Source: a virus. From it: 11,474 bases of DNA. Below are positions 1,632 to 10,014 of this stretch, in pieces; the stretch's first letter is position 1, and every line of letters starts with the position of its first letter. The stretch is from the UHGV virus genome UHGV-0044052; one strand, written 5' to 3'. The position numbers and the translations under genes are program-made. The notes beneath the pieces are model-generated. The model searched no databases. It saw nothing but the letters and a program-made list of their open reading frames with translations, and was not told where the DNA came from.

Positions 1632-2174
1632 TTACTCGCCTTTCTTCTGTAGCAACTTTTCCGGTACGTTTCCGGTTGTTTCTTTCAAGTAATCAGCCAG
1701 TATCTGTGGGAGGTTGTCGGCAACTCTGGCACTGGCATTACAGGCTTTAACCACTTCCCTTTTAAGCCTATCCAGCATGGCGGGGGTAATCTGTGGGAAG
1801 CTCCTTTGCATAGTAAGCGGGAGGCTGTCCATGATTGATGAAATCTGACTCGCCAGCTTTGAAAGCGCGTACAGGCAAAACTCAGTATCAATCACGTCAC
1901 CGCGATCGCGCTCGTTTTTAAGTTCCTGCGCCTCCGCCTGTGCTGTCAGTAATCTGATCCTGACTCGTAAGAGTTCATCATCATCAATATCGCCTTTGTC
2001 GTTTGTAAGCTGGCTAATTGCATTGTTAACCCTATTGTCTATCACGCTGGCAACATCGTAAAACGCCTCACGGCCTTTACGTTCAACGGGAGTCACTCCC
2101 CACTTGTCGAACGCTGTCGCACTTACACGGCAGCTTTTCGCCATGTTTTTTTTGTTCATCAGGTGCGATTTCAT
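1632..2174 (-). CDS. Terminase small subunit, lambda Nu1 family
   Basis: 180-aa product. N-terminus MNKKNMAKSCRVSATAFDKWGVTPV resembles the Nu1 winged-HTH start (VNKKQLADIFGASIRTIQNWQEQGMPV). Central LLTAQAEAQELKNERDRGDVIDTEFCLYALSKLASQISSIMDSLPLTMQRSFP aligns with Nu1 LTRAQADAQELKNARDSAEVVETAFCTFVLSRIAGEIASILDGLPLSVQRRFP. Similar length to Nu1 (181 aa). Comparison is from memory, not a search. Confidence 0.85.
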   Translation of the reverse strand: MKSHLMNKKNMAKSCRVSATAFDKWGVTPVERKGREAFYDVASVIDNRVNNAISQLTNDKGDIDDDELLRVRIRLLTAQAEAQELKNERDRGDVIDTEFCLYALSKLASQISSIMDSLPLTMQRSFPQITPAMLDRLKREVVKACNASARVADNLPQILADYLKETTGNVPEKLLQKKGE

Positions 2175-2350
2175 TAATACACCAACTTAATTACTGCTTC
2201 AGGTTGGTGTATTGTTTGCATCTTTCCCTTTTCATTCATAAAGATAGAGCAAACAACAAAACCACCACCACCCCCCTGAAAAAGCTCATAAATAGCGAAA
2301 AACCGCGAGGTCGCCGCCCCGTAACGGGCCATAATTCCAGGAAGGACCCG
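2175..2350 (-). other. Second cos site (cos B), inverted relative to cos A, directly upstream of the TerS gene
   Basis: Minus strand reads cgggtccttcctggaattatggcccgttacg | GGGCGGCGACCT | cgcggtttttcgctatttatgagc. The cosN complement aggtcgccgccc is at 2308-2319. It forms a ~54-bp near-perfect inverted repeat with 1409-1462 (one indel). The cosB-equivalent region differs from cos A and contains a 9-bp-stem hairpin (tacaccaac / gttggtgta) just before the TerS start. Confidence 0.75.
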
Positions 2351-2376
2351 CAAAAAAGCCGGATTTCTCCGGCCTT
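2350..2376 (-). terminator. Rho-independent terminator after the 137-aa ORF
   Basis: Hairpin GCCGGA-tttc-TCCGGC (2358-2373) followed on the minus strand by a T-run (plus-strand aaaaaa at 2352-2357). Confidence 0.6.
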
Positions 2377-2379
2377 GTC

Positions 2380-2793
2380 TCAGATGGTTTTCAGTATGCG
2401 ATCGATGTCGCCGTCATCGCCTGGGTTTCTGCCATCGTATGCCATGCCAGCTGATACGGTTTGTGGGCTGTGCATGTCCATAAAGTTTTCAAAGGCTGCG
2501 GTAAGCTCTGGTGCAACCTTCGGGCGTTCCTGCTCTATGGTCATGTTCAGGATGTTTTTAGCCGTATCAACATCGATACAAGGCACGTTTGCCATTGCAC
2601 GCAACAGCGGCTGATAGTCTTTATGCTCATGAAGCGCCATAATCGCATCAGCGCGCGGCTTGTCCTGCTCTTCCAGTTTGTTGAGTTGATATACGGCCTC
2701 GTAGGTTGATAAACCTCTGTCAGCCATTGCCCGCGCTTCGGCTTTAAATTTACTCGCCAGCGGTAGCGCCATGATGCTTTCATTCGTTGCCAT
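2380..2793 (-). CDS. Hypothetical protein (137 aa) in the head module
   Basis: ORF with a strong SD (GGGGGA) 4-5 nt upstream of the ATG at 2793, immediately downstream of the decoration gene. No recognisable family. Confidence 0.6.
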   Translation of the reverse strand: MATNESIMALPLASKFKAEARAMADRGLSTYEAVYQLNKLEEQDKPRADAIMALHEHKDYQPLLRAMANVPCIDVDTAKNILNMTIEQERPKVAPELTAAFENFMDMHSPQTVSAGMAYDGRNPGDDGDIDRILKTI

Positions 2794-2805
2794 CGTTCCC
2801 CCTGC

Positions 2806-3093
2806 TTATCGGGCCAGCGGCTGAACGGATACGCCAGAACCCGCAAAGGCGGCGCATTTTTTCGCATCGGTGTCGACGCTCTCAGGCCAGTTAACGGCGG
2901 CAATATTGAATATCCCCGTCTTGTAACACTGTGCTGATTTCTGCTTTGACGTGTCCACGAGGTACGAAGTCAGATAAACAGCCTTGCCAGATTCCTGACC
3001 ATCCCACGGCTTAAACTCGCCATTGTCCGCCAGCATCAGCGGCAAAATGTACCAGCGTCGTGGATACCTGCTGACTGCCTGCAAATAACTCAA
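2806..3093 (-). CDS. Head decoration protein, lambda gpD-like (start uncertain)
   Basis: LPLMLADNGEFKPWDGQESGKAVYL...YKTGIFNIAAVNWPESVDTDAKKCAAFAGSGVSV aligns with lambda gpD [27 protein letters not shown]...[35 protein letters not shown]. The ORF as drawn starts at a TTG. The only SD-preceded ATG nearby (3109) is in another frame. Confidence 0.7.
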   Translation of the reverse strand: MSYLQAVSRYPRRWYILPLMLADNGEFKPWDGQESGKAVYLTSYLVDTSKQKSAQCYKTGIFNIAAVNWPESVDTDAKKCAAFAGSGVSVQPLAR

Positions 3094-3120
3094 TGTATGG
3101 AGTGTCCATAGAATCCCCCG

Positions 3121-4176
3121 TTAAGCAATTTTGACGGTAACAAATTTGCGAATATCTGCCGGAACCGGCTGCGGTGCGCTGTGCGTCTGCACGTACTCAA
3201 TCGCCGGATCGCCGTCCTCAATCCAGTTTTTCGGGTAGTACATGTTTTGCGTTGCGCCTGTTCTTACCGCTTCCTGATCCATAATCGCACCATAGGCCAC
3301 CAGCCCTTTGTTGTTGGTGTTGCCCAGGACCAGCAAATCAGGATCAAGGAAATATTTTTCTGTGCCGTCGCTGTCAGTGTATTTGCCGGAATAGACGATA
3401 AGGGCAATATCGCCCAGATAGCCTTTAAAGCTCACCACTTCGCCCAGGTTTTTACAGGCCAGCTCTGCGGCGGACTCTGAACCACGGGAAAGATCGTACA
3501 GCTCACGGAATTTTTTAAAGCTGCGTAACGTTCGCCATACCTCAACGCCCATAATCATGACGTTTGCGGGGCAACCAGCCTGATCGGCGTATAGTTCGAT
3601 ATCATAGATTGGATCGTGGGTTTCTTTGTCCTGCTCTGACCATTTTTTCCCGTCGGCCTGCTCTATGATGTTTTTTTCCGGTATCTTCCAGTCGATTTCA
3701 TAGCGCTCTATGCCTTCGCCCTCAATGATGTTTTTTCCGGTCGTTACCGCATTTACCGCCAGCCATTCCACGCGCGCTTTTATGGCGTTTATCTGGCGGC
3801 GCATATTGCCAGTAATCAGGCGCATACGGCGATAGGTAGGGTCGTTAAGCTGTGCCGGATCTTCTCCAGCCATGCGCATGATGGTTTTCGTTGGATCGAT
3901 TTCGTGCTTTGGCTTCATGTAGCCAGGTTTAATCGTGCTGGTTTCGTACCCTTTATCGCGCTGAACCTGGCTACCCACCATAGGCGAACAAAACGCCGAC
4001 ATGGTGACTTCTTCAATGTCCAGGGTATCCAGCATGATGTTTTGCGTGTTGAATGTCGCCACGTTCGGGAAAAACAGCGCGGTAAACAGCGGACTAAATT
4101 TAAATTCCGCAATATCCTCGCGATTCAGGTACGCGAAAAGCTGGTGTGTGTTAAGTGCCATTGCTTTGACTGCCAT
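3121..4176 (-). CDS. Major capsid protein, lambda gpE-like (HK97 fold)
   Basis: 351-aa product with conserved blocks shared with lambda gpE along its length: EFKFSPLFTALFF / KFKFDPLFLRLFF, KPGYMKPKHEIDP / TPGYVKPKHEVNP, DPTYRRMRLI / DPAYRRRRII, GDIALIVYSGKY / GDVAIVVYSGQY, YYPKNWIEDGDPA / RYPKNWVTTGDPA, SAP near the C-terminus. Confidence 0.9.
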   Translation of the reverse strand: MAVKAMALNTHQLFAYLNREDIAEFKFSPLFTALFFPNVATFNTQNIMLDTLDIEEVTMSAFCSPMVGSQVQRDKGYETSTIKPGYMKPKHEIDPTKTIMRMAGEDPAQLNDPTYRRMRLITGNMRRQINAIKARVEWLAVNAVTTGKNIIEGEGIERYEIDWKIPEKNIIEQADGKKWSEQDKETHDPIYDIELYADQAGCPANVMIMGVEVWRTLRSFKKFRELYDLSRGSESAAELACKNLGEVVSFKGYLGDIALIVYSGKYTDSDGTEKYFLDPDLLVLGNTNNKGLVAYGAIMDQEAVRTGATQNMYYPKNWIEDGDPAIEYVQTHSAPQPVPADIRKFVTVKIA

Positions 4177-4382
4177 TATTCACCCCCATGAGTCTGATTT
4201 ATGCCCAGCGCCGCGCGTAAATAGGAGCGTACCTGCCAGCCTGTTGACGGCTCAACCATCGCCAGCGGATCAAGTCCTGCCGCAATGCCTGCTTTTACGT
4301 TCTGCTGGTGGCGTTCCTTGAGCGCCTTCACGATGTCGGGGCTTATGTACACCGAAACACCGCCTTTTTTCTCTTCAGCCAT
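4176..4382 (-). CDS. Hypothetical protein (68 aa), first gene of the late operon
   Basis: ORF with SD AAGAGGA upstream of the ATG at 4382. Its stop overlaps the capsid gene start (TAATG), suggesting translational coupling. No recognisable family. Confidence 0.5.
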   Translation of the reverse strand: MAEEKKGGVSVYISPDIVKALKERHQQNVKAGIAAGLDPLAMVEPSTGWQVRSYLRAALGINQTHGGE

Positions 4383-5495: not shown

Positions 5496-5542
5496 ATTTA
5501 TTTTTACCCCCTCGTTTAAAAAGTTTTGAGTTGTGCCTCCCC

Positions 5543-5767
5543 TTGTCTACCTATCTACCTTAGTGGCCCTCATGCCAGTAATGGCGCGGCTTTCAGCGGG
5601 GTAGAGTGCTTTTATCCACTATCTACCCCGTGTCTACCTCCCTGTCTGATTCAGGTAAAATCAGGTAGAGAGGGTAGATAGTGGGTAGACAGTAAAAAAA
5701 GGCTATCTACCTAACTTAATGCACTGAATTAAATGTATTTTTCTTTACTCAGGTAGACAGGGTAGAC
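5543..5767. repeat. Iteron array, putative origin of replication
   Basis: Eleven copies of the 7-8-mer GGTAGA(C/T/G)(A) in both orientations: forward at ~5600, 5664, 5673, 5684, 5752, 5761; reverse (TCTACC) at ~5545, 5553, 5621, 5632, 5705. An AT-rich stretch lies at 5693-5750. Immediately downstream of the primase gene 3' end. Confidence 0.7.
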
Positions 5768-5782
5768 AGCCATTGCAACAAA

Positions 5783-7537
5783 TTATAAAAACGCGTCGCA
5801 ATCGTCTGTTGTTATTGCGTTAGTCTGCGTTACTCCTTTAACTTTCCGCGTAATATATTCATGTCCGTAAACTTTCGCGGCTGGCTTCATAGCCTTGCCA
5901 AAGTCATTTACGTTTAGCGGTTTGCTCCTGCCTGCGTACGCCATAAACGCCAGATAGACGCGGTAAAGGCTGTTTCTGGTCGTGTACTTCACTGAATCGC
6001 CACCGCCGCCCATCATCAGGCCGCGTGCTTCCTCCAGAAAATTCAGGAACTGGCAAAACTCAATAACCGGATCCGTCTGTTGCTTTATTGCCAGTGCTTC
6101 ATCACCGTCACGCTGTTCAATGAGTAAAGCCCGTGCCTTTTCAGGGTCGGCAAAGTTCGCCAGCAAGCGGCGGATAATGACAGGGATTTCAGCCGCGATC
6201 TTTTCCGGTAGCTCCCTGTCTTTTTCTGCCTCGCTTACGATGTTATCGAACCGGAATATCACCCGACGACGTGCCACACCTCCGGCCCGTTCGGTGAATA
6301 TCATCGGATTGTTATTGGTTGCCAGCACCACCGCCCTGATTACCGCCGTAAAACGCTTTTCATATTTCGGGTTAATTTCCACGGGGTCGCCGCCCGTGAT
6401 TTTCTTGATGCCCGTTCCTTCGCCTGTATATTTCGGCTGGTCTGCCAGGACGATAAGACGACTCCCGACAACCTGCGCACGCCCACCAGCATCATCAAGC
6501 GATGTCATTTCAGCGCTTACCGTGTTTTGTTTCCCTGCCAGAAGGCTGGCTATGTGTGTGAATGTACTTTTACCGCTCCCGCCGTCTCCGGTGGCCTCAA
6601 TAAACATCTGCCAGTCGTACCGGTTCGCCATAATCATGTACAGCGCGGCACATATACGCATCATCTTGCGCGGGTCTTTTCCGGCTGCGTGCTCAAGCCA
6701 TTTATGAAAGTTTGGCGCGTTATCGCGGATGTTCTCCCCTGGTGCTGGTGGCGTGTACTCAATGCCGTTGTGCGTGGTGATCCAGTTCTCCGGCGTGTGC
6801 GGGGAAAATTCCCCCGTTTTCAGGTCAAGCGCACCATTGGCGAACGGCAGCAAATCGCCGGACGGCTCGCCCATTGGTTCGGCAATAACTTTTAACGCTT
6901 CCACGGCGTTATTGATTACGCGCTTGCTGAAAGTGGCCCTGTGCTCTGAATAGATCGCCACCATTTCGCGGCTAAGTTCCATTGTGCTGACCGGACACCA
7001 TACCCCGCCGCGCCATACGTGAACGATTTCACTTTCAGGATGTACGCAAACGCCATCAAAGCGATCGGCAAGCAGCTGCGCGCGCTCACTGTCCGCCATC
7101 TGCGAAAGTTGCGCCTTTTGCTTTACCGGAAGCTCAATGACCAGACCATCAGAAAGATTCTGGCGCTCACGGGCCAGATATTCGCGCCAGTTCTCCACCT
7201 TCTGACCGTGCATACCATCAGGGTAAAAATTTGCATCCTGTACGCCTGCCGCCGCCAGCTTCTGACCAATCGCCTTTATCATTACTGGCGCAAGATATCC
7301 GGCCCTGAATATGCGCACGGATTTTCTGCCTTCCGGCACAATTTGCAGCTTATCCAGTTCTGATAACTGCTGCTCCCCAAGCCACACAGGAGGCTCATTA
7401 TCTCCGGCCATACGCGCATCATGTTCCTGCCATTGTTTCGCGTGTGCCCAGGCATCACTACCCGCAAAAATAATGACTTCTGTTCCTTTGTGTTTTATGC
7501 CGCGTGACTGCTGTTTTACGTTCGGTGCCAGTTTCAT
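5783..7537 (-). CDS. Replication primase/helicase (P4 alpha / D5-like, SF3 helicase domain)
   Basis: 584-aa product with Walker A GDGGSGKST in the central region and a C-terminal region plausibly DNA-binding. SD AGGGGT upstream. Start overlaps the preceding ORF stop (ATGA). Domain assignment is from motifs only. Confidence 0.8.
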   Translation of the reverse strand: MKLAPNVKQQSRGIKHKGTEVIIFAGSDAWAHAKQWQEHDARMAGDNEPPVWLGEQQLSELDKLQIVPEGRKSVRIFRAGYLAPVMIKAIGQKLAAAGVQDANFYPDGMHGQKVENWREYLARERQNLSDGLVIELPVKQKAQLSQMADSERAQLLADRFDGVCVHPESEIVHVWRGGVWCPVSTMELSREMVAIYSEHRATFSKRVINNAVEALKVIAEPMGEPSGDLLPFANGALDLKTGEFSPHTPENWITTHNGIEYTPPAPGENIRDNAPNFHKWLEHAAGKDPRKMMRICAALYMIMANRYDWQMFIEATGDGGSGKSTFTHIASLLAGKQNTVSAEMTSLDDAGGRAQVVGSRLIVLADQPKYTGEGTGIKKITGGDPVEINPKYEKRFTAVIRAVVLATNNNPMIFTERAGGVARRRVIFRFDNIVSEAEKDRELPEKIAAEIPVIIRRLLANFADPEKARALLIEQRDGDEALAIKQQTDPVIEFCQFLNFLEEARGLMMGGGGDSVKYTTRNSLYRVYLAFMAYAGRSKPLNVNDFGKAMKPAAKVYGHEYITRKVKGVTQTNAITTDDCDAFL

Positions 7538-7833
7538 TTTTTACCCCTGAATCCGTTAATCATGGTTTTCAGCTTCTGGATGTTTGCCCGTGCCCTGGCG
7601 TTGCTGGTGGGCACGTTATGCGGCGCGGTCTGTACCAGAGAAAAATCACGCCGGAACTGATAAACAGGCATCACGCAATCATATTCGTAACCTTCACGGC
7701 GGTAAGTTACGCACCGTCCCGCCACGCCCTTAATCATTACCGTGCCGCCGTACTGGTCGCGGTAAATATCGCCGCGCGTAAATTTAGGGTGAGTGTTGCC
7801 ACTGGCAGTTAAGCCAGAATATTTAAGTTTCAT
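7534..7833 (-). CDS. Hypothetical protein (99 aa), early operon gene 6
   Basis: ORF with SD GGAGAA upstream, stop overlapping the primase start (ATGA). Basic C-terminus. No recognisable family. Confidence 0.55.
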   Translation of the reverse strand: MKLKYSGLTASGNTHPKFTRGDIYRDQYGGTVMIKGVAGRCVTYRREGYEYDCVMPVYQFRRDFSLVQTAPHNVPTSNARARANIQKLKTMINGFRGKK

Positions 7834-7838
7834 TATTT

Positions 7839-8072
7839 TTATTCTCCGGTGTGCTGTTCTTTATATCTATCGTGCAATAGATCTATTTCTTGCAGTTCCA
7901 TTATTACAGGCTCAAGAAGCGTTATTAATGCCGTGGCAATTCTTGATTTTTGTTTGTCGCGTTCATTGTCGCCAAGTGTTTCAAGCCATATGCGCAATAT
8001 TTCCAGCATGTTTTCACTGTGAGAAAGTGCAAGAAATGCGCGGTCTATTGTTTCGTGGTAAATATCACGCAT
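7839..8072 (-). CDS. Hypothetical small acidic protein (77 aa), early operon gene 5
   Basis: ORF with SD ACGGGGA upstream. Upstream gene stop TAA lies 1 nt before its ATG. Acid-rich, predicted helical by eye. Confidence 0.55.
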   Translation of the reverse strand: MRDIYHETIDRAFLALSHSENMLEILRIWLETLGDNERDKQKSRIATALITLLEPVIMELQEIDLLHDRYKEQHTGE

Positions 8073-8073
8073 A

Positions 8074-8295
8074 TTAATCCCCGTCCGTCGTTTTTCTTAA
8101 AATAACCTCTGTCACGAAATCAGCATAATCGGCGGCGATATTCAGTACATCAAGCCCCGTTGATTTATATTCTCTCGTGGAAAGTAAGAAAAAAGCCGCT
8201 CTAATAAGTTCTGGCATTGACGAAAGCGCATCAGCCGCATCATCAGGAACGCCGGAAAATTCCTGTTTCAGGGAATTAAAACGATCATCACGCAT
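8074..8295 (-). CDS. Hypothetical small acidic protein (73 aa), early operon gene 4
   Basis: ATG at 8295 preceded by a G-run. Overlaps the upstream ORF by 8 nt (ATGCGTGA). Asp-rich N-terminus. An alternative in-frame ATG at 8308 would give 78 aa; the ORF track's longer start at 8343 (89 aa) is not used. Confidence 0.5.
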   Translation of the reverse strand: MRDDRFNSLKQEFSGVPDDAADALSSMPELIRAAFFLLSTREYKSTGLDVLNIAADYADFVTEVILRKTTDGD

Positions 8296-8509
8296 AACCC
8301 CCCCCATTTTCACAATCAGCAACAAGAATATTTTTAGCGTCATTCAGCGACCGTGTTGCGATGTATCGGATACATTCCAGGGCGAACTGTGTCCGGTCTT
8401 TCTGTTCTTCTCCCTGCGCAAGCTCTGCAGTGCATTCAATATCGATAAGCGCGTGCATCAGCGTAGTGAGCGCGGCGGCTGCTGCGTCCGGTGTGGTTTT
8501 ATTGCACAT
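8288..8509 (-). CDS. Hypothetical small acidic protein (73 aa), early operon gene 3
   Basis: ATG at 8509 preceded by SD GGAGGGG. Overlaps the upstream ORF end by ~11 nt. The ORF track gives a longer N-terminus (start 8563) that lacks an SD. Confidence 0.5.
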   Translation of the reverse strand: MCNKTTPDAAAAALTTLMHALIDIECTAELAQGEEQKDRTQFALECIRYIATRSLNDAKNILVADCENGGGYA

Positions 8510-8729
8510 GTACCCCTCCGCATTTTTTTTCGTTAGAAATAAGCGTTCTTCTTTCCTGTTCATCGCTCAGGAATACGCAGACCTCACCGCTAAGGCGTTT
8601 AAGTAAGCCGATGATTGCCCCTGATTCGCTGTCGGTCATCATGCCAGGGTAATCCTCTGCCAGTGCGCAAATAACTTCGATTTGGTGGGCGCGTTCTGCT
8701 GCCTGTTGTAGTGTGATTTCCTGGCTCAT
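8499..8729 (-). CDS. Hypothetical small acidic protein (76 aa), early operon gene 2
   Basis: ATG at 8729 overlaps the stop of gene 1 (ATGA). Non-repetitive composition. Confidence 0.5.
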   Translation of the reverse strand: MSQEITLQQAAERAHQIEVICALAEDYPGMMTDSESGAIIGLLKRLSGEVCVFLSDEQERRTLISNEKKCGGVHVQ

Positions 8730-8926
8730 AAGCCTACCCCCTGACGAATACGGGCAGCAAATACCATCACGCAGCCAGCCGGAGATTGCTGACGCGCTTC
8801 CTGTTCGCTGGTGGCCTCGATGGTAATCACGCGCGGTTGTGCCGTGCTCAGGGCGATAAAACGCCAGATGTATTTATTCAGGTTGTACGAGTCCCGCCCT
8901 TGCGGGTGTATGGTATAATTTCTCAT
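8726..8926 (-). CDS. Hypothetical protein (66 aa), first gene of the early operon
   Basis: ATG at 8926 with SD GAGG ~6 nt upstream. Corresponds to the 3' end of the 355-aa ORF in the track, whose 5' part is low-complexity and antisense to the RHH gene and is not used. Confidence 0.45.
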   Translation of the reverse strand: MRNYTIHPQGRDSYNLNKYIWRFIALSTAQPRVITIEATSEQEARQQSPAGCVMVFAARIRQGVGL

Positions 8927-9122
8927 AGCTGCCTCGATAATCTTGCTATCGTTGGTGGTTAGAAGCCCCGTTACTGCTCCTACAGTGCGGGGTTTCGTCG
9001 TTTCTGCACCTTGCATTAACAAGGTGTAAGTAACTTTATTTATAGGTGGCTTACATGTCAATGCTTTTATGTAAGACTTTTTATGTGTATATTGTCTTAC
9101 ACTTTCATTGAGAGGATTACAG
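8927..9122. promoter_or_regulatory. Divergent promoter/operator region (genetic switch)
   Basis: Four TGTAAG / CTTACA half-sites arranged as two inverted pairs (9025-9030 / 9050-9055 and 9070-9075 / 9096-9101; the second is GTAAGAC-N16-GTCTTAC). Palindrome CCTTG-cattaa-CAAGG at 9009-9024. Candidate leftward promoter TTGACA (plus 9057-9062) - 18 bp - TAAAGT (plus 9033-9038). Candidate rightward -10 TATATT at 9088-9093. Confidence 0.6.
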
Positions 9123-9428
9123 ATGGCTACAGGTTCAAAAAACGCAAAATCACAATCACTGACAGCTCGGATCCCGCATGATGTTATTGAAGGCATGGAA
9201 TCCGTAAAACTGGACGGTGAAAGCAACGCCGGATTCATAGTAACCGCCATGCGCGGTGAAATCGCCCGCCGCCAGGCAGAAGGAAGCGGAGAAAACCCCC
9301 TGATTTCTTCGCACGATGCACTGGCGCAGGTGGAAAAACTCGGAATCAAAGCCGCCGAGGAGATCGGGCAGCTCGTCACTGTCGCACGTGAAGAACTCCA
9401 GCGCCGCAAGACCAAAGAACCAGAGTAA
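9123..9428 (+). CDS. Ribbon-helix-helix (CopG/Arc-like) DNA-binding protein, putative island repressor
   Basis: ATG at 9123 with SD GAGAGGA. N-terminal SLTARIPHDVIEGMESVKLDGESNAGFIVTAMRGEIARR fits a beta-strand / helix / helix RHH pattern. Divergent from the early operon across the operator region. Confidence 0.6.
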   Translation: MATGSKNAKSQSLTARIPHDVIEGMESVKLDGESNAGFIVTAMRGEIARRQAEGSGENPLISSHDALAQVEKLGIKAAEEIGQLVTVAREELQRRKTKEPE

Positions 9429-9485
9429 TCACCATCAGCGCCGTGGTGTAAGGTATTACGGCGCATTGCTATGCAGGACAACACA

Positions 9486-9659
9486 ATGACCGATAAAGAA
9501 TTGACCAAAACATTATCACCGGCACGGAAAAGACGGCGCAGAAAGATAGAGCATGAATCAGAAAGATTCGCGCCATGTGCTTTTGCCCTTGAGCAATTCC
9601 TTAAAGAATACAGGGAAAAGCGCTCATTGCAGGTATGGCAACGAACTGAACCAGACTGA
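9486..9659 (+). CDS. Hypothetical small basic protein (58 aa)
   Basis: ATG at 9486 with AGGA 8 nt upstream. Contains an RKRRRRK basic patch. Alternative start at 9471 as in the ORF track. Confidence 0.4.
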   Translation: MTDKELTKTLSPARKRRRRKIEHESERFAPCAFALEQFLKEYREKRSLQVWQRTEPD

Positions 9660-9753
9660 TTGCATTGCCCACCAGCCTGATAGCGGCTATCATCCCCGTG
9701 CTTATGTTTGGGATCATATACACATAAGGCGCAGCGGGTTAATTGTTCAGAAA

Positions 9754-9781
9754 GGCGGCTCCATATCGGGGCCGCTTTTTT
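9754..9781 (+). terminator. Rho-independent terminator between convergent rightward genes and alpA
   Basis: Stem GCGGC / GCCGC (9755-9759 / 9771-9775) with an ~11-nt loop, followed by tttttt (9776-9781). Confidence 0.55.
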
Positions 9782-9807
9782 CGTGTTTGTCATATCTGTG
9801 ATACCCG

Positions 9808-10014
9808 TTAAGCAGCCGTTCCGCGTGCTTCCTGTTCGCGTTCTTTCTGCCAGGCCAACACATCATCCTCATACCATCCGCGACGGCGTAAACCAACGCG
9901 AAAACCCTGCGGAAATTCTCCGGCGTTGATCATGCTTTGCAGCGTGCTGTCTGCCTTGATGTGGATAATTTTTTTTACTTCCTGGCGAAAGATAATTTTT
10001 CTGATTGCTTCCAT
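9808..10014 (-). CDS. alpA: AlpA-family transcriptional regulator / excisionase-like protein
   Basis: 68-aa product. KIIFRQEVKKIIHIKADSTLQSMINAGEFPQGFRVGLRRRGWYEDDVLAWQ matches the AlpA/Phage_AlpA HTH pattern (K..G.R.VGW.E.EV..W). Location near a P4-type integrase is typical. Confidence 0.75.
   Translation of the reverse strand: MEAIRKIIFRQEVKKIIHIKADSTLQSMINAGEFPQGFRVGLRRRGWYEDDVLAWQKEREQEARGTAA

What the first reader, a model, noticed from the sequence alone, without database searches (positions are those of the whole stretch)
7534..8926. Early operon of six small, translationally coupled ORFs of unknown function upstream of the primase
Six ORFs of 66-99 codons are packed with overlapping or abutting start/stop codons (ATGA, TAA-n-ATG, an 8-nt overlap) directly behind the switch promoter and ahead of the primase. 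Genes 2-5 are similar in size and appear acid-rich and helical by eye, which is reminiscent of DNA-mimic or protein-inhibitor effectors made early by phages and satellites. None matches a family recognisable by eye. They are the strongest candidates here for novel helper-interference, derepression, anti-defence or defence functions.
Basis: partly seen in the sequence, partly recalled or inferred. Interest (0 to 1): 0.7.

Follow-up and report, generated by a model that had tools for sequence, protein, structure and literature searches.

The report
Small-gene leader of a satellite's replication operon
The six tiny genes are real and form the conserved leader of the replication operon of a phage-parasitic island in E. 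coli Nissle 1917: two belong to known families (an Icd-like division inhibitor and the regulator RgdR), while the four acidic ones still have no known function, though three of them behave as one unit that strains carry either as separate or as fused proteins.

Summary
Observation confirmed. The window is 100% identical to an ~11-kb PICI-type satellite at tRNA-Pro in E. coli Nissle 1917, and RefSeq calls the same six genes. All have Shine-Dalgarno sites and overlapping or abutting junctions. Frames are kept across 12-53 alleles each (dN/dS mostly 0.1-0.6).

Interpretation partly supported. ORF1 is Icd-like (NF033153). ORF6 is RgdR/DUF4222, 78% identical to the studied EHEC regulator, with its RGD motif; my model gives a Tudor/KOW-like barrel plus a basic helix. 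ORF2-5 are acidic and helical, not paralogous, and match only unknown-function PHROGs. No PADLOC or PDB sequence match.

New here:
- Gene order is fixed (Icd, [ORF2], ORF3, [insert], ORF4, ORF5, RgdR, replicase), while alleles, optional cassettes and replicase types shuffle.
- The ORF2/3 and ORF3/4 junctions are A8 and G8 tracts. Their length varies between near-identical elements, giving separate, double-fused or triple-fused proteins, so ORF2-4 act as one unit.

A preprint reports a six-gene Icd-like-to-primase locus in ECOR61 that arrests growth when a phage gene is expressed. Its layout matches the Sakai Sp7 version of this operon.

Best reading: a helper-induced early host-takeover and replication operon. 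Moderately interesting; a new member of a known kind.

The parts
9033..9061 (-). Promoter-like site (TTGACA-17-TAAAGT) for the operon. It is flanked by TGTAAG/CTTACA inverted repeats (9021-9030 and 9096-9105) that could be operators.
   Evidence: Consensus scan; inverted repeat I1; sequence. Function is inferred, not shown.
8726..8926 (-). ORF1, 66 aa, basic: Icd-like protein and first gene of the operon.
   Evidence: NF033153 phage_ICD_like, E 1.4e-19, 69.9 bits against a cut-off of 25. phrog_6196, E 1e-42. [quoted passage not shown] 51% identical to Sakai ECs1577.
8499..8729 (-). ORF2, 76 aa, acidic and helical. An optional cassette, present in 24 of the 65 loci where the ORF3 start could be examined. 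Same family as Sakai ECs1579 and Fels-1 STM0898.6n.
   Evidence: phrog_1478, E 3e-28. 53% identical to ECs1579. About 40% identical to early-left ORFs of Fels-1 and Klebsiella temperate phages. Presence/absence.
8523..8530 (-). A8 tract at the ORF2/ORF3 junction. A7 variants fuse ORF2 to ORF3.
   Evidence: Sequence. A8 in 21 loci and A7 in 3 loci. Fused proteins.
8288..8509 (-). ORF3, 73 aa, acidic and helical. Several allele classes (about 90-100%, 47-56% and 38% identity).
   Evidence: phrog_5146, and the N-terminal half of phrog_2512. Alleles and dN/dS of 0.1-0.7.
8298..8305 (-). G8 tract at the ORF3/ORF4 junction, which also serves as the Shine-Dalgarno sequence for ORF4. G7 or G10 gives an ORF3-ORF4 fusion through a Gly-Gly linker. 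G8 or G11 gives separate genes with an 8-nt overlap. G9 gives ORF3 an alternative tail.
   Evidence: G7 x17, G8 x23, G9 x14, G10 x2, G11 x1. Near-identical loci differ in tract length. All three main states occur in complete RefSeq genomes.
8074..8295 (-). ORF4, 73 aa, acidic and helical.
   Evidence: phrog_24341, and the C-terminal half of phrog_2512. Fused ORF3-4 and ORF2-3-4 homologues are abundant in E. coli.
7839..8072 (-). ORF5, 77 aa, acidic and helical. A core gene that always sits directly upstream of RgdR.
   Evidence: phrog_2196, E 8e-42. Family present in 75 loci against 76 with RgdR. Distant alleles include Sakai ECs1580 (26% identity; phrog_2196 E 6e-11).
7534..7833 (-). ORF6, 99 aa, basic: RgdR-family protein (DUF4222), ATGA-coupled to the replicase.
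   Evidence: PF13973, E 2e-23. 78% identical to ECs1581, with R20-G21-D22 and K35 present. AlphaFold pLDDT 78.8, with the core above 90; Tudor/KOW-like small beta-barrel plus a C-terminal basic helix.
5783..7537 (-). Primase/helicase (D5_N, DUF5906 and Pox_D5 domains), the last gene of the coupled block.
   Evidence: Pfam; PGAP. Only the N-terminal 125-163 aa are shared with the other replicase types found behind RgdR.
5539..5770 (.). Replication-origin-like iteron field (GGTAGAYAG in both orientations) just downstream of the primase.
   Evidence: The weak, spurious mir-135 match is this palindromic region. PICI origins are described as iteron sets downstream of pri-rep.
9123..9428 (+). Divergently transcribed YlcI/YnfO-family gene facing the operon promoter; a candidate switch partner.
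   Evidence: NF041551, E 1.9e-20; PGAP; phrog_6522. Its role is inferred.
9808..10014 (-). AlpA-like HTH regulator upstream of the block.
   Evidence: PGAP 'helix-turn-helix transcriptional regulator'. The Pfam Phage_AlpA match is weak, 17.6 bits against a cut-off of 21. AlpA activates the downstream genes in EcCICFT073.

Best explanation
The block is the leader of the early (replication) operon of a PICI-type phage satellite integrated at tRNA-Pro in E. coli Nissle 1917.

How I think it works:
- One transcript starts at the promoter near 9030. By analogy with EcCICFT073 it is switched on through AlpA when a helper phage is active.
- Translation is coupled from gene to gene, so all six small proteins and the primase are made together.
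- ORF1 (Icd-like, basic) is the host-directed growth or division-arresting effector.
- ORF2, ORF3 and ORF4 are three parts of one acidic helical protein or complex. ORF5 is a fourth, core, acidic helical protein. Their most likely role is to bind and modulate host or helper-phage proteins, not DNA and not the replicase.
- ORF6 (RgdR) is a small Tudor/KOW-like beta-barrel with a basic C-terminal helix. It acts as a low-specificity DNA-binding and possibly RNA-polymerase-binding co-factor that reprogrammes host transcription. It is always delivered together with the conserved N-terminal domain of the replicase.
- The net effect on induction is to arrest the cell, retune transcription and start satellite replication. 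If a phage that cannot serve as helper triggers it, the same programme looks like abortive infection.

Shown here: gene structure, family membership of ORF1 and ORF6, conservation, mosaicism and the fusions. Taken from papers: AlpA activation, the RgdR phenotypes, and the cell-death phenotype of a look-alike locus. Inferred: the targets of ORF2-5, polymerase binding by RgdR, and toxicity of this particular Icd-like protein.
For: Context:
- The island carries int, an AlpA-like gene, a D5-type primase followed by iterons, SSB, capsid, decoration and terS genes, and sits next to tRNA-Pro.

Coupled operon:
- Shine-Dalgarno sites, overlapping junctions, no same-strand terminator reported inside the block, and an upstream promoter-like site.

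Regulation and known members:
- In EcCICFT073, AlpA activates the genes downstream of alpA, helper phages induce alpA, and uncontrolled induction harms the cell.
- ORF1 is Icd-like.
- ORF6 is RgdR. [quoted passage not shown]
- ORF6 is 78% identical to ECs1581 and keeps R20, G21, D22 and K35.

ORF2-4 as one unit:
- ORF2-3, ORF3-4 and ORF2-3-4 fusions are common in E. coli. P0001 is identical to the window proteins apart from the junctions. P0018, P0045 and P0028 occur on 258, 212 and 52 contigs.

Not replicase accessories:
- The same small-ORF alleles precede four replicase types.
- ORF2 relatives sit in the early-left accessory gene strings of temperate phages.

Defence-like outcome:
- In ECOR61, a six-gene Icd-like-to-primase locus gives programmed cell death on expression of phage orf24.
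- Tn5 suppressors hit the Icd-like gene and the two small ORFs next to it, and removing the Icd-like gene abolished the effect.
- The lengths and overlaps of those genes (366/186/192 nt; 8-nt and 1-nt overlaps) match Sakai Sp7 ECs1577-1579 (198/186/192 nt; the same overlaps).
- The Sp7 six-gene series ECs1577-1582 is homologous to ORF1, ORF2, ORF5, ORF6 and the primase N-terminus of the window.
Against: - No experiment exists for this island or for ORF2-5 in any element.
- I could not fetch the ECOR61 sequence, so its equivalence to this operon rests on gene sizes, overlaps and annotation only.
- Tn5 insertions in an operon are polar, so the ECOR61 small ORFs may not contribute themselves.
- Relation to P1 Icd is shown only through the NCBIfam profile. 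tblastn against 50,697 phage records found no P1 hit, and no C4-type antisense RNA was found.
- Deleting rgdR changes type III secretion in uninduced EHEC, so at least that gene is expressed without deliberate helper induction. That fits a lysogenic-conversion role as well as an induction role.
- The AlpA-like protein here is below Pfam's threshold. A divergent YlcI/YnfO gene lies between it and the operon, so regulation may differ from EcCICFT073.
- The structure model for ORF2-3-4 is not usable.
Confidence: 0.55

Rival explanations
1. Dedicated abortive-infection or superinfection-exclusion module. The Icd-like protein is a toxin held in check or armed by the acidic small proteins, and the main selected function is defence of the host population against non-helper phages rather than the satellite's own life cycle.
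For: The ECOR61 locus behaves this way in a preprint, and a P4-like element does the same with P22 Abc1. A basic ORF1 is followed by an ATGA-coupled acidic ORF2. Allele shuffling of ORF3-5 looks like arms-race diversification. PICIs are known carriers of immune systems.
Against: There is no PADLOC hit. The block sits in the core regulatory and replication region, in fixed order, and is coupled to the replicase, not in the known accessory hotspots. Reconstitution in ECOR61 needed all six genes including the primase and was weak, as expected if the phenotype is simply satellite induction. Insertions in the small ORFs rescued growth rather than killing cells, which is not antitoxin behaviour.
Confidence: 0.2
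2. Replication accessory proteins, such as origin-remodelling factors, a helicase loader, or primase chaperones, that serve only satellite DNA replication.
For: The block lies immediately upstream of the replicase and is translationally coupled to it, with the origin just downstream. RgdR is always ATGA-linked to a replicase whose N-terminal 125-163 aa are conserved. RgdR binds DNA.
Against: The same ORF2-5 alleles occur with D5-type primases, RepA-type helicases and two other replicase types. ORF2 is optional, and ORF3 and ORF4 are absent from minimal modules that still have a replicase. ORF2 relatives lie in non-replication early-left regions of temperate phages. There are no matches to known loader or initiator families. 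RgdR has host-wide transcriptional effects.
Confidence: 0.12
3. Anti-defence proteins (DNA mimics or inhibitors of restriction, RecBCD and similar) made early to protect incoming or replicating satellite DNA.
For: They are small, acidic, helical, made early and fast-evolving, and are shared in part with the early regions of temperate phages.
Against: D+E content is only 15-21%, below my recollection of roughly 25-30% for classical mimics such as Ocr or ArdA (the benchmark is from memory). There is no family or PDB match. The model is unusable. No anti-defence library was available to test against.
Confidence: 0.08
4. Lysogenic-conversion regulators. The block is expressed from the resident island to retune host transcription (virulence, motility), in the way RgdR and PerC do, and the link to replication is incidental.
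For: A single-copy chromosomal rgdR affects type III secretion, adherence and sheep colonisation without deliberate induction. Related islands also carry PerC/PchE regulators.
Against: Nissle and uropathogenic strains have no LEE yet keep the module. Tight coupling to an Icd-like gene and the replicase, and AlpA dependence in the model PICI, argue for an induction-phase role. Nothing suggests that ORF2-5 bind DNA.
Confidence: 0.05

Closest known systems
RgdR (ECs1581) of EHEC O157:H7 prophage-like element Sp7/OI-51 (Flockhart et al. 2012, PMC3378721)
   Same: ORF6 is 99 aa, 78% identical, carries DUF4222, has RGD at residues 20-22 and K35, is basic, and lies directly upstream of the primase of a PICI-type island and overlaps it.
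   Different: Nissle has no LEE. The activity of this allele is untested, and its N- and C-terminal residues differ from ECs1581. The Tudor/KOW-like fold and the RNA-polymerase-binding idea are my inference and are not in the paper.
Icd of phage P1 and the NCBIfam 'Icd-like' family NF033153
   Same: ORF1 matches the profile well above its cut-off, is small, and is the first gene of a regulated early operon. That Icd is the first gene of P1's icd-ant operon is from my own knowledge.
   Different: No direct BLAST similarity to P1 was detected. No C4 antisense RNA was found. Division inhibition has not been tested for any PICI copy.
Six-gene 'prophage' programmed-cell-death / superinfection-exclusion locus of E. 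coli ECOR61 (Silas et al., bioRxiv 10.1101/2023.04.06.535777)
   Same: It has an Icd-like gene, then overlapping small ORFs, then a DNA primase. Its gene sizes and overlaps match Sakai Sp7 ECs1577-1579, whose members are homologous to window ORF1, ORF2, ORF5, ORF6 and the primase N-terminus.
   Different: Its Icd-like gene has a long N-terminal extension. The window has ORF3 and ORF4, which Sp7 lacks, and lacks the 61-aa ECs1578 cassette.
AlpA-activated early operon of Gram-negative PICIs (EcCICFT073; cf-PICI EcCIEDL933)
   Same: The int, alpA, small ORFs, RgdR, pri-rep and iteron origin layout is the same. RgdR is said to be in all E. coli PICIs analysed, and the gene downstream of alpA is described as variable and of unknown function.
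   Different: Here a divergent YlcI/YnfO gene and a separate promoter-like site lie between alpA and the block. The island has only capsid, decoration and terS genes, not the full cf-PICI packaging set.
Left (alpha) operon of satellite P4: kil, eta, cI RNA, epsilon, orf151, alpha primase (my own knowledge)
   Same: A toxic first gene is followed by small genes, one of which (epsilon) binds a helper protein, and then by the primase-helicase, all in one early transcript.
   Different: No sequence similarity was tested or claimed. P4 immunity is RNA-based, and no such RNA was found here. The Penades group regard PICIs and P4 as separate lineages.
Strings of tiny overlapping early-left genes in temperate phages (for example Fels-1 STM0898.6n between repressor and xis)
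   Same: ORF2 is about 40% identical to these ORFs, they show the same packed overlapping arrangement, and their function is unknown.
   Different: Only ORF2 is shared. ORF3-5 had no match in the phage collection.
Homopolymer contingency loci (phase variation by slipped-strand mispairing; my own knowledge)
   Same: The G7-G11 and A7-A8 tracts at coding junctions differ between near-identical elements.
   Different: The tracts do not switch a gene off. ORF4 keeps its own start in every state, and the change is between separate and fused polypeptides. Switching within a population has not been shown.

Membership tests
Icd-like protein (NF033153) | Match to the NCBIfam profile above its curated cut-off | tested here: met
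   69.9 bits against a cut-off of 25, E 1.4e-19, residues 19-62 covering the whole 48-position profile.
Icd-like protein (NF033153) | Detectable pairwise similarity to phage P1 Icd | tested here: not met
   tblastn of ORF1 against 50,697 phage records at E<=0.01 hit only the cf-PICI-like vB_KppS-Ant, not P1.
Icd-like protein (NF033153) | Control by a C4-type antisense RNA, as in the P1 immI operon | tested here: not met
   The Rfam scan of the whole window at E<=1 gave only a spurious mir-135 match.
Icd-like protein (NF033153) | Reversible inhibition of cell division when expressed | not testable with these tools
   Needs expression and microscopy.
RgdR / DUF4222 | Pfam PF13973 above the gathering score | tested here: met
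   82.1 bits against 27, residues 16-68 covering the whole profile.
RgdR / DUF4222 | About 99 aa with RGD at 20-22 and K35, the residues shown to matter for activity | tested here: met
   ORF6 is 99 aa, has R20-G21-D22 and K35, and is 78% identical to ECs1581.
RgdR / DUF4222 | Located directly upstream of the replicase in a PICI-type island | tested here: met
   ATGA overlap with the primase here, and the same position in 84 related loci.
RgdR / DUF4222 | Activates LEE1/type III secretion and represses motility | not testable with these tools
   These are phenotypes reported for ECs1581 and CFT073 c1493. This allele is untested.
Gram-negative PICI | Integrase at one end, next to a specific attachment site | tested here: met
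   An integrase gene lies next to tRNA-Pro between yejM and narP.
Gram-negative PICI | AlpA-family activator | tested here: inconclusive
   A 68-aa HTH protein sits in the right position, but the Pfam Phage_AlpA score is 17.6 against a cut-off of 21 and there is no NCBIfam hit.
Gram-negative PICI | pri-rep gene followed by an iteron origin | tested here: met
   D5_N, DUF5906 and Pox_D5 domains. GGTAGAYAG iterons at 5539-5770.
Gram-negative PICI | About 10-15 kb, with no tail or lysis genes | tested here: met
   About 11 kb between the terS-side end and tRNA-Pro, with no such genes annotated.
Gram-negative PICI | Induction and transfer by a helper phage | not testable with these tools
   Needs experiments.
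Capsid-forming PICI (cf-PICI) | Full packaging set: capsid, protease, portal, head-tail connectors, terS and terL | tested here: not met
   Only the major capsid, head decoration and terS genes are annotated in the Nissle island. Compare Sakai Sp7, which has the full set.
DNA-mimic anti-restriction proteins (Ocr/ArdA type) | Very high density of acidic residues arranged along a DNA-like surface | tested here: inconclusive
   D+E is 15-21% and pI 4.4-5.0. The structure model is too poor to judge charge layout (pLDDT 41.5).
Known anti-phage defence systems (PADLOC-DB) | Match to any PADLOC model | tested here: not met
   No hits at E<=1 for any of the six proteins.
Paralogous gene array | Detectable similarity among ORF2-5 | tested here: not met
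   blastp gave nothing significant. hhalign of the family alignments gave probabilities of 1.4% or less.
Homopolymer contingency locus | Tract length differs between otherwise near-identical elements | tested here: met
   6 of 19 close pairs (4 or fewer mismatches in 800 nt) differ in G-tract length, while identical-flank groups share the same length. Exact G7, G8 and G9 versions all occur in complete genomes.
Homopolymer contingency locus | The length change switches a gene on or off | tested here: not met
   ORF4 keeps its own ATG and Shine-Dalgarno sequence in all states. Only the C-terminus of ORF3 (or ORF2) changes or fuses.

The most novel reading that the evidence does not exclude
The A8 and G8 junction tracts may be functional switches rather than tolerated hypermutable sites. 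By DNA slippage, and possibly by transcriptional slippage, a satellite population would make ORF2, ORF3 and ORF4 either as separate subunits or as two- or three-domain fusions. That would change the specificity or strength of a sensor complex which, together with the Icd-like effector, decides whether an incoming phage is exploited as a helper or aborted. This would be a phase-variable phage-sensing module at the heart of a PICI.
Probability: 0.15. Interest if true: 0.75.

Novelty: new member of a known kind. Interest (0 to 1): 0.45.

Why it matters
In Gram-negative PICIs the genes between alpA and the replicase are the least understood part of the element, and the satellite literature itself calls the region variable and of unknown function. 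This analysis makes the block testable in four ways:
- It separates a fixed core (Icd-like, ORF5, RgdR and the N-terminal domain of the replicase) from swappable cassettes.
- It shows that ORF2-4 are one functional unit.
- It gives RgdR a fold-based mechanistic hypothesis: a CarD- or UvrD-CTD-like contact with RNA polymerase plus a basic DNA-binding helix.
- It connects the operon to a reported phage-triggered cell-death phenotype.

The element sits in the probiotic strain Nissle 1917, and parts of the block occur in about a third of complete E. coli genomes. Its effect on phage sensitivity, growth arrest and host transcription therefore has practical relevance.

Tried and rejected
- AlphaFold of the natural ORF2-3-4 triple fusion with 73 homologues gave pLDDT 41.5 (all helices), so I ran no fold search on it. 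The family is confined to Escherichia and its relatives and the alignment is too shallow.
- PDB sequence and profile searches for ORF2, the ORF3-4 profile, ORF5 and ORF6 gave only chance-level hits.
- PADLOC gave no hits.
- Rfam gave no C4 or other regulatory RNA, only a spurious mir-135 hit on the origin palindrome.
- Paralogy of ORF2-5 is rejected.
- A -1 ribosomal frameshift on the in-frame A_AAA_AAA heptamer or the G run is rejected as a route to the fusions. ORF3 and ORF4 are each in the +1 frame relative to the gene before, so a -1 slip enters a short dead-end frame (sequence).
- Sequencing error as the cause of tract variation is rejected. Identical-flank groups agree in tract length, and all states occur in complete genomes with matching PGAP gene calls.
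- The genome-contig scan with RgdR returned only 2 loci.
- The ORF2 homologue search returned only 22 E. coli proteins and gave no route to the ECOR61 contig.
- Counting tract lengths in complete genomes by identity band is only semi-quantitative, because up to 138 partial alignments fall in the same band.
- Fold searches for RgdR show a generic small barrel, with no single confident functional homologue.

Full report
**Source and context**

The stretch 7400-9100 is 100% identical to the chromosome of E. coli Nissle 1917. In RefSeq the window lies in an island of about 11 kb between narP and tRNA-Pro/yejM.

All island genes but one are on the minus strand. In order they are:
- integrase
- a small hypothetical gene
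- a 68-aa HTH protein in the AlpA position
- on the plus strand, a YlcI/YnfO-family gene
- the six small ORFs
- a D5-type primase/helicase
- a hypothetical gene and SSB
- major capsid, head decoration protein and terS

Pfam and NCBIfam agree with this. Directly downstream of the primase lies a field of GGTAGAYAG iterons in both orientations (5539-5770). This is the origin layout described for Gram-negative PICIs.

The element is therefore a PICI-type phage satellite. It lacks the portal, protease, connectors and terL, so it is not a full capsid-forming PICI. Sakai Sp7 has the full set.

**Checking the observation**

- ORF1 8726-8926
- ORF2 8499-8729
- ORF3 8288-8509
- ORF4 8074-8295
- ORF5 7839-8072
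- ORF6 7534-7833

All are on the minus strand and are followed by the primase at 5783-7537. Every start is an ATG behind a G-rich Shine-Dalgarno sequence. The junctions are ATGA, an 11-nt overlap, an 8-nt overlap, TAA-T-ATG, a 5-nt spacer, and ATGA into the primase.

A good sigma-70-like site (TTGACA-17-TAAAGT) lies at 9061..9033, and the scan reports no same-strand terminator inside the block.

The genes are real. Eighty IMG/VR loci and several annotated E. coli, Shigella and E. albertii loci carry them in the same order. Frames are intact in alleles as low as 34-55% identity, and pairwise dN/dS is mostly 0.1-0.6. At least part of the block is present in 1812 of 5426 complete E. coli genomes.

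**ORF1 and ORF6 belong to known families**

ORF1 (basic, 66 aa) matches the NCBIfam Icd-like domain far above its cut-off. It is the first gene in every version of the module. [quoted passage not shown] The tie to P1 Icd rests only on the profile. tblastn against the phage collection found no P1 hit, and no C4-type antisense RNA was found.

ORF6 (basic, 99 aa) is a DUF4222 protein, 78% identical to RgdR/ECs1581 of EHEC O157:H7, with the RGD motif at 20-22 and K35. Published work on RgdR (PMC3378721) reports that it:
- activates LEE1 and type III secretion
- represses motility
- binds DNA weakly and non-specifically
- has its activity changed by substitutions at residues 20 and 35

The CFT073 orthologue c1493 is functionally interchangeable with it. 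The PICI discovery paper states that RgdR is encoded by all E. coli PICIs analysed (PMC6092414).

A full HMMER search of 1.84 billion representative proteins found only 45 clusters, so the family is narrow. With 36 of these sequences AlphaFold gave pLDDT 78.8, above 90 for residues 20-70. The model is a five-stranded small beta-barrel, a short helix, and a C-terminal basic helix (77-96).

The scores are modest. Foldseek E-values are 0.02 or higher, and the viral library returns only uncharacterised proteins and DUF1653. A 'mini-CarD' mode of action is therefore a hypothesis, not a result.

**ORF2-5 remain of unknown function**

ORF2-5 are acidic (pI 4.4-5.0; D+E 15-21%). They match only PHROG families of unknown function. 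Pfam, NCBIfam, PADLOC and PDB sequences give nothing. They are not paralogues.

Homologues are essentially confined to Escherichia and its relatives. The exception is ORF2. It is about 40% identical to tiny ORFs in the early-left gene strings of Fels-1 and Klebsiella temperate phages, and 53% identical to Sakai ECs1579.

**Comparative anatomy**

Across the loci the order is invariant: Icd-like, [ORF2], ORF3, [a 70- or 127-aa insert family], ORF4, ORF5, RgdR, replicase.
- Each position occurs in several allele classes that combine freely.
- ORF2 is present in 24 of the 65 loci where the ORF3 start could be examined.
- ORF3 and ORF4 can be missing.
- The minimal module is Icd-like, an ORF5 family member, and RgdR (L075).
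- The ORF5 family accompanies RgdR in 75 loci against 76 with RgdR.

Four replicase types follow RgdR: 584 aa D5-type, 465-471 aa RepA-type, 601-604 aa and 711-714 aa. They share only their first 125-163 residues. The same small-ORF alleles occur with different replicases. This argues against ORF2-5 being replicase-specific helpers.

**Homopolymer junctions and fusions**

The ORF3/ORF4 junction is ...GAA AAT GGGGGGGG TT ATG CGT GA..., with the G8 tract at window 8298-8305.
- In related loci the tract is G7 (17 loci), G8 (23), G9 (14), G10 (2) or G11 (1).
- G7 and G10 read through as ...CENGG(G)VMRDD..., a fusion with a Gly-Gly linker.
- G8 and G11 end ORF3 with an 8-nt overlap.
- G9 gives ORF3 a different tail.
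- ORF4 keeps its own start in every state.

The ORF2/ORF3 junction holds an A8 tract (8523-8530). A7 variants fuse ORF2 to ORF3.

Fused proteins are common in public E. coli data:
- ORF3-4 fusions occur on hundreds of contigs (P0018 on 258, P0045 on 212).
- ORF2-3-4 triple fusions also occur. P0001 is identical to the window proteins apart from the junctions. P0028 is on 52 contigs, including complete genomes.

This variation is not sequencing noise.
- Groups of loci with identical flanks share the same tract length.
- 6 of 19 pairs differing by 4 or fewer substitutions in 800 nt differ in tract length.
- Exact G7, G8 and G9 versions all occur in complete RefSeq genomes. PGAP calls one protein for G7 and two for G8 and G9.
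- The counts are only bounds: at least 325 genomes with G7, at least 105 with G8, and G9 present.

The tracts are therefore hypermutable, and both separate and fused forms are tolerated. By Rosetta-stone logic ORF2, ORF3 and ORF4 work as one unit. A -1 ribosomal slip cannot produce the fusions, because the downstream frame is +1. A contribution from transcriptional slippage is untested.

**What papers say about function**

- In EcCICFT073, AlpA activates the genes downstream of alpA. Helper phages induce alpA. Forced AlpA expression causes runaway replication that harms the cell.
- A 2025 cf-PICI preprint lists the gene downstream of alpA as a variable region of unknown function.
- A 2023 preprint (10.1101/2023.04.06.535777) reports that in E. 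coli ECOR61 a 'prophage' locus of six linked genes, including an Icd-like gene and a DNA primase, stops growth when phage accessory gene orf24 is expressed.
  - Tn5 suppressors hit the Icd-like gene (366 nt) and two adjacent ORFs (186 and 192 nt).
  - All six genes were needed to rebuild the effect, and removing the Icd-like gene abolished it.
  - Those sizes and the 8-nt and 1-nt overlaps are the ones seen at ECs1577-1579 in Sakai Sp7.
  - The Sp7 six-gene series ECs1577-1582 is homologous to window ORF1 (51%), ORF2 (53%), ORF5 (26%, and the same PHROG), ORF6 (78%) and the primase N-terminus (83%).
  - I could not retrieve the ECOR61 contig, so this identification is an inference.
- The same preprint shows that a P4-like element is triggered by P22 Abc1, with suppressors in int, alpA, the Icd-like gene and the primase.

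**Most likely mechanism (confidence about 0.55)**

The block is the leader of the satellite's early operon. It is transcribed from the promoter near 9030 under AlpA/helper control, possibly with the divergent YlcI/YnfO gene as the other arm of a switch. Translation is coupled through to the primase.
- The Icd-like protein arrests the host.
- RgdR retunes transcription through DNA, and perhaps through RNA polymerase.
- The ORF2-4 unit and ORF5 bind host or helper proteins.
- The replicase then fires the adjacent origin.
- If a phage that cannot act as helper triggers the programme, the outcome resembles abortive infection.

Gene structure, family membership, conservation and the fusions are shown here. 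Regulation and phenotypes are taken from papers on related elements. The targets of ORF2-5 and the RgdR mechanism are inferred.

**Rival readings**

| Reading | Confidence | Main point |
|---|---|---|
| Dedicated abortive-infection module | 0.2 | Precedent in ECOR61, but the block is in the core region and coupled to the replicase |
| Replication accessories | 0.12 | Weakened by replicase swapping and by the optional cassettes |
| Anti-defence proteins or DNA mimics | 0.08 | Acidity is only moderate and nothing else supports it |
| Lysogenic-conversion regulators | 0.05 | Supported by RgdR acting from the uninduced chromosome |

**Verdict**

But the block is a widespread, already annotated part of a known kind of element, and two of its six genes belong to named families, one of them studied experimentally.

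What this analysis adds:
- the split into a fixed core and swappable cassettes
- the evidence that ORF2-4 are one unit, separated or fused by hypermutable A and G tracts
- a fold for RgdR
- the probable link to a published cell-death phenotype

I rate it a new member of a known kind, with interest 0.45.

Noticed in passing
window 8298-8305 and 8523-8530 (minus strand G8 and A8): Homopolymer tracts sit exactly at the ORF3/ORF4 and ORF2/ORF3 junctions. Their length varies between near-identical elements and toggles the genes between separate and fused forms.
   Followed up: yes
window 8726-9793 (minus strand): A single open frame of 355 codons runs from just after the alpA-like gene through the antisense of the YlcI/YnfO gene into ORF1. 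PGAP marks 9314-9793 as a truncated 'Icd-like' pseudogene. Its Cys/Ser/Arg-rich translation is homologous to Sakai ECs1576 (247 aa). It is unclear whether this frame is ever coding.
   Followed up: partly
window 9471-9659 (plus strand): An unannotated 62-aa ORF with a plausible, highly charged sequence lies downstream of the YlcI/YnfO gene and matches phrog_21027 (E 1.6e-15). It may form a two-gene divergent unit facing the operon.
   Followed up: partly
window 9021-9105: TGTAAG/CTTACA inverted repeats bracket the promoter-like site of the operon. They could be operator sites for the switch.
   Followed up: partly
window 5539-5770: A dense field of GGTAGAYAG iterons in both orientations lies just downstream of the primase and is probably the replication origin. 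The weak Rfam mir-135 match at 5615-5696 is this palindrome and is spurious.
   Followed up: yes
window 7049-7537 (primase residues 1-163) and the replicases in L002-L086: Four different replicase types follow RgdR in related elements. They share only their N-terminal 125-163 residues (43-87% identity). This domain has no Pfam match and may be the partner of RgdR or a recombination joint.
   Followed up: partly
protein P0294 (deep search): A 797-aa protein contains five DUF4222-like stretches, unlike all other family members, which are single-domain proteins of about 100 aa.
   Followed up: no
L016 4247-4481; L004 4157-4602: Some related elements carry a split ORF5 or a 'frameshifted' ORF3-4 call, so individual cassettes do decay in some lineages.
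   Followed up: no
window 1632-4382: The island keeps only the major capsid, lambda-D-like decoration protein and terS genes, with no portal, protease or terL. It is either a reduced capsid-forming PICI or a distinct PICI subtype.
   Followed up: partly
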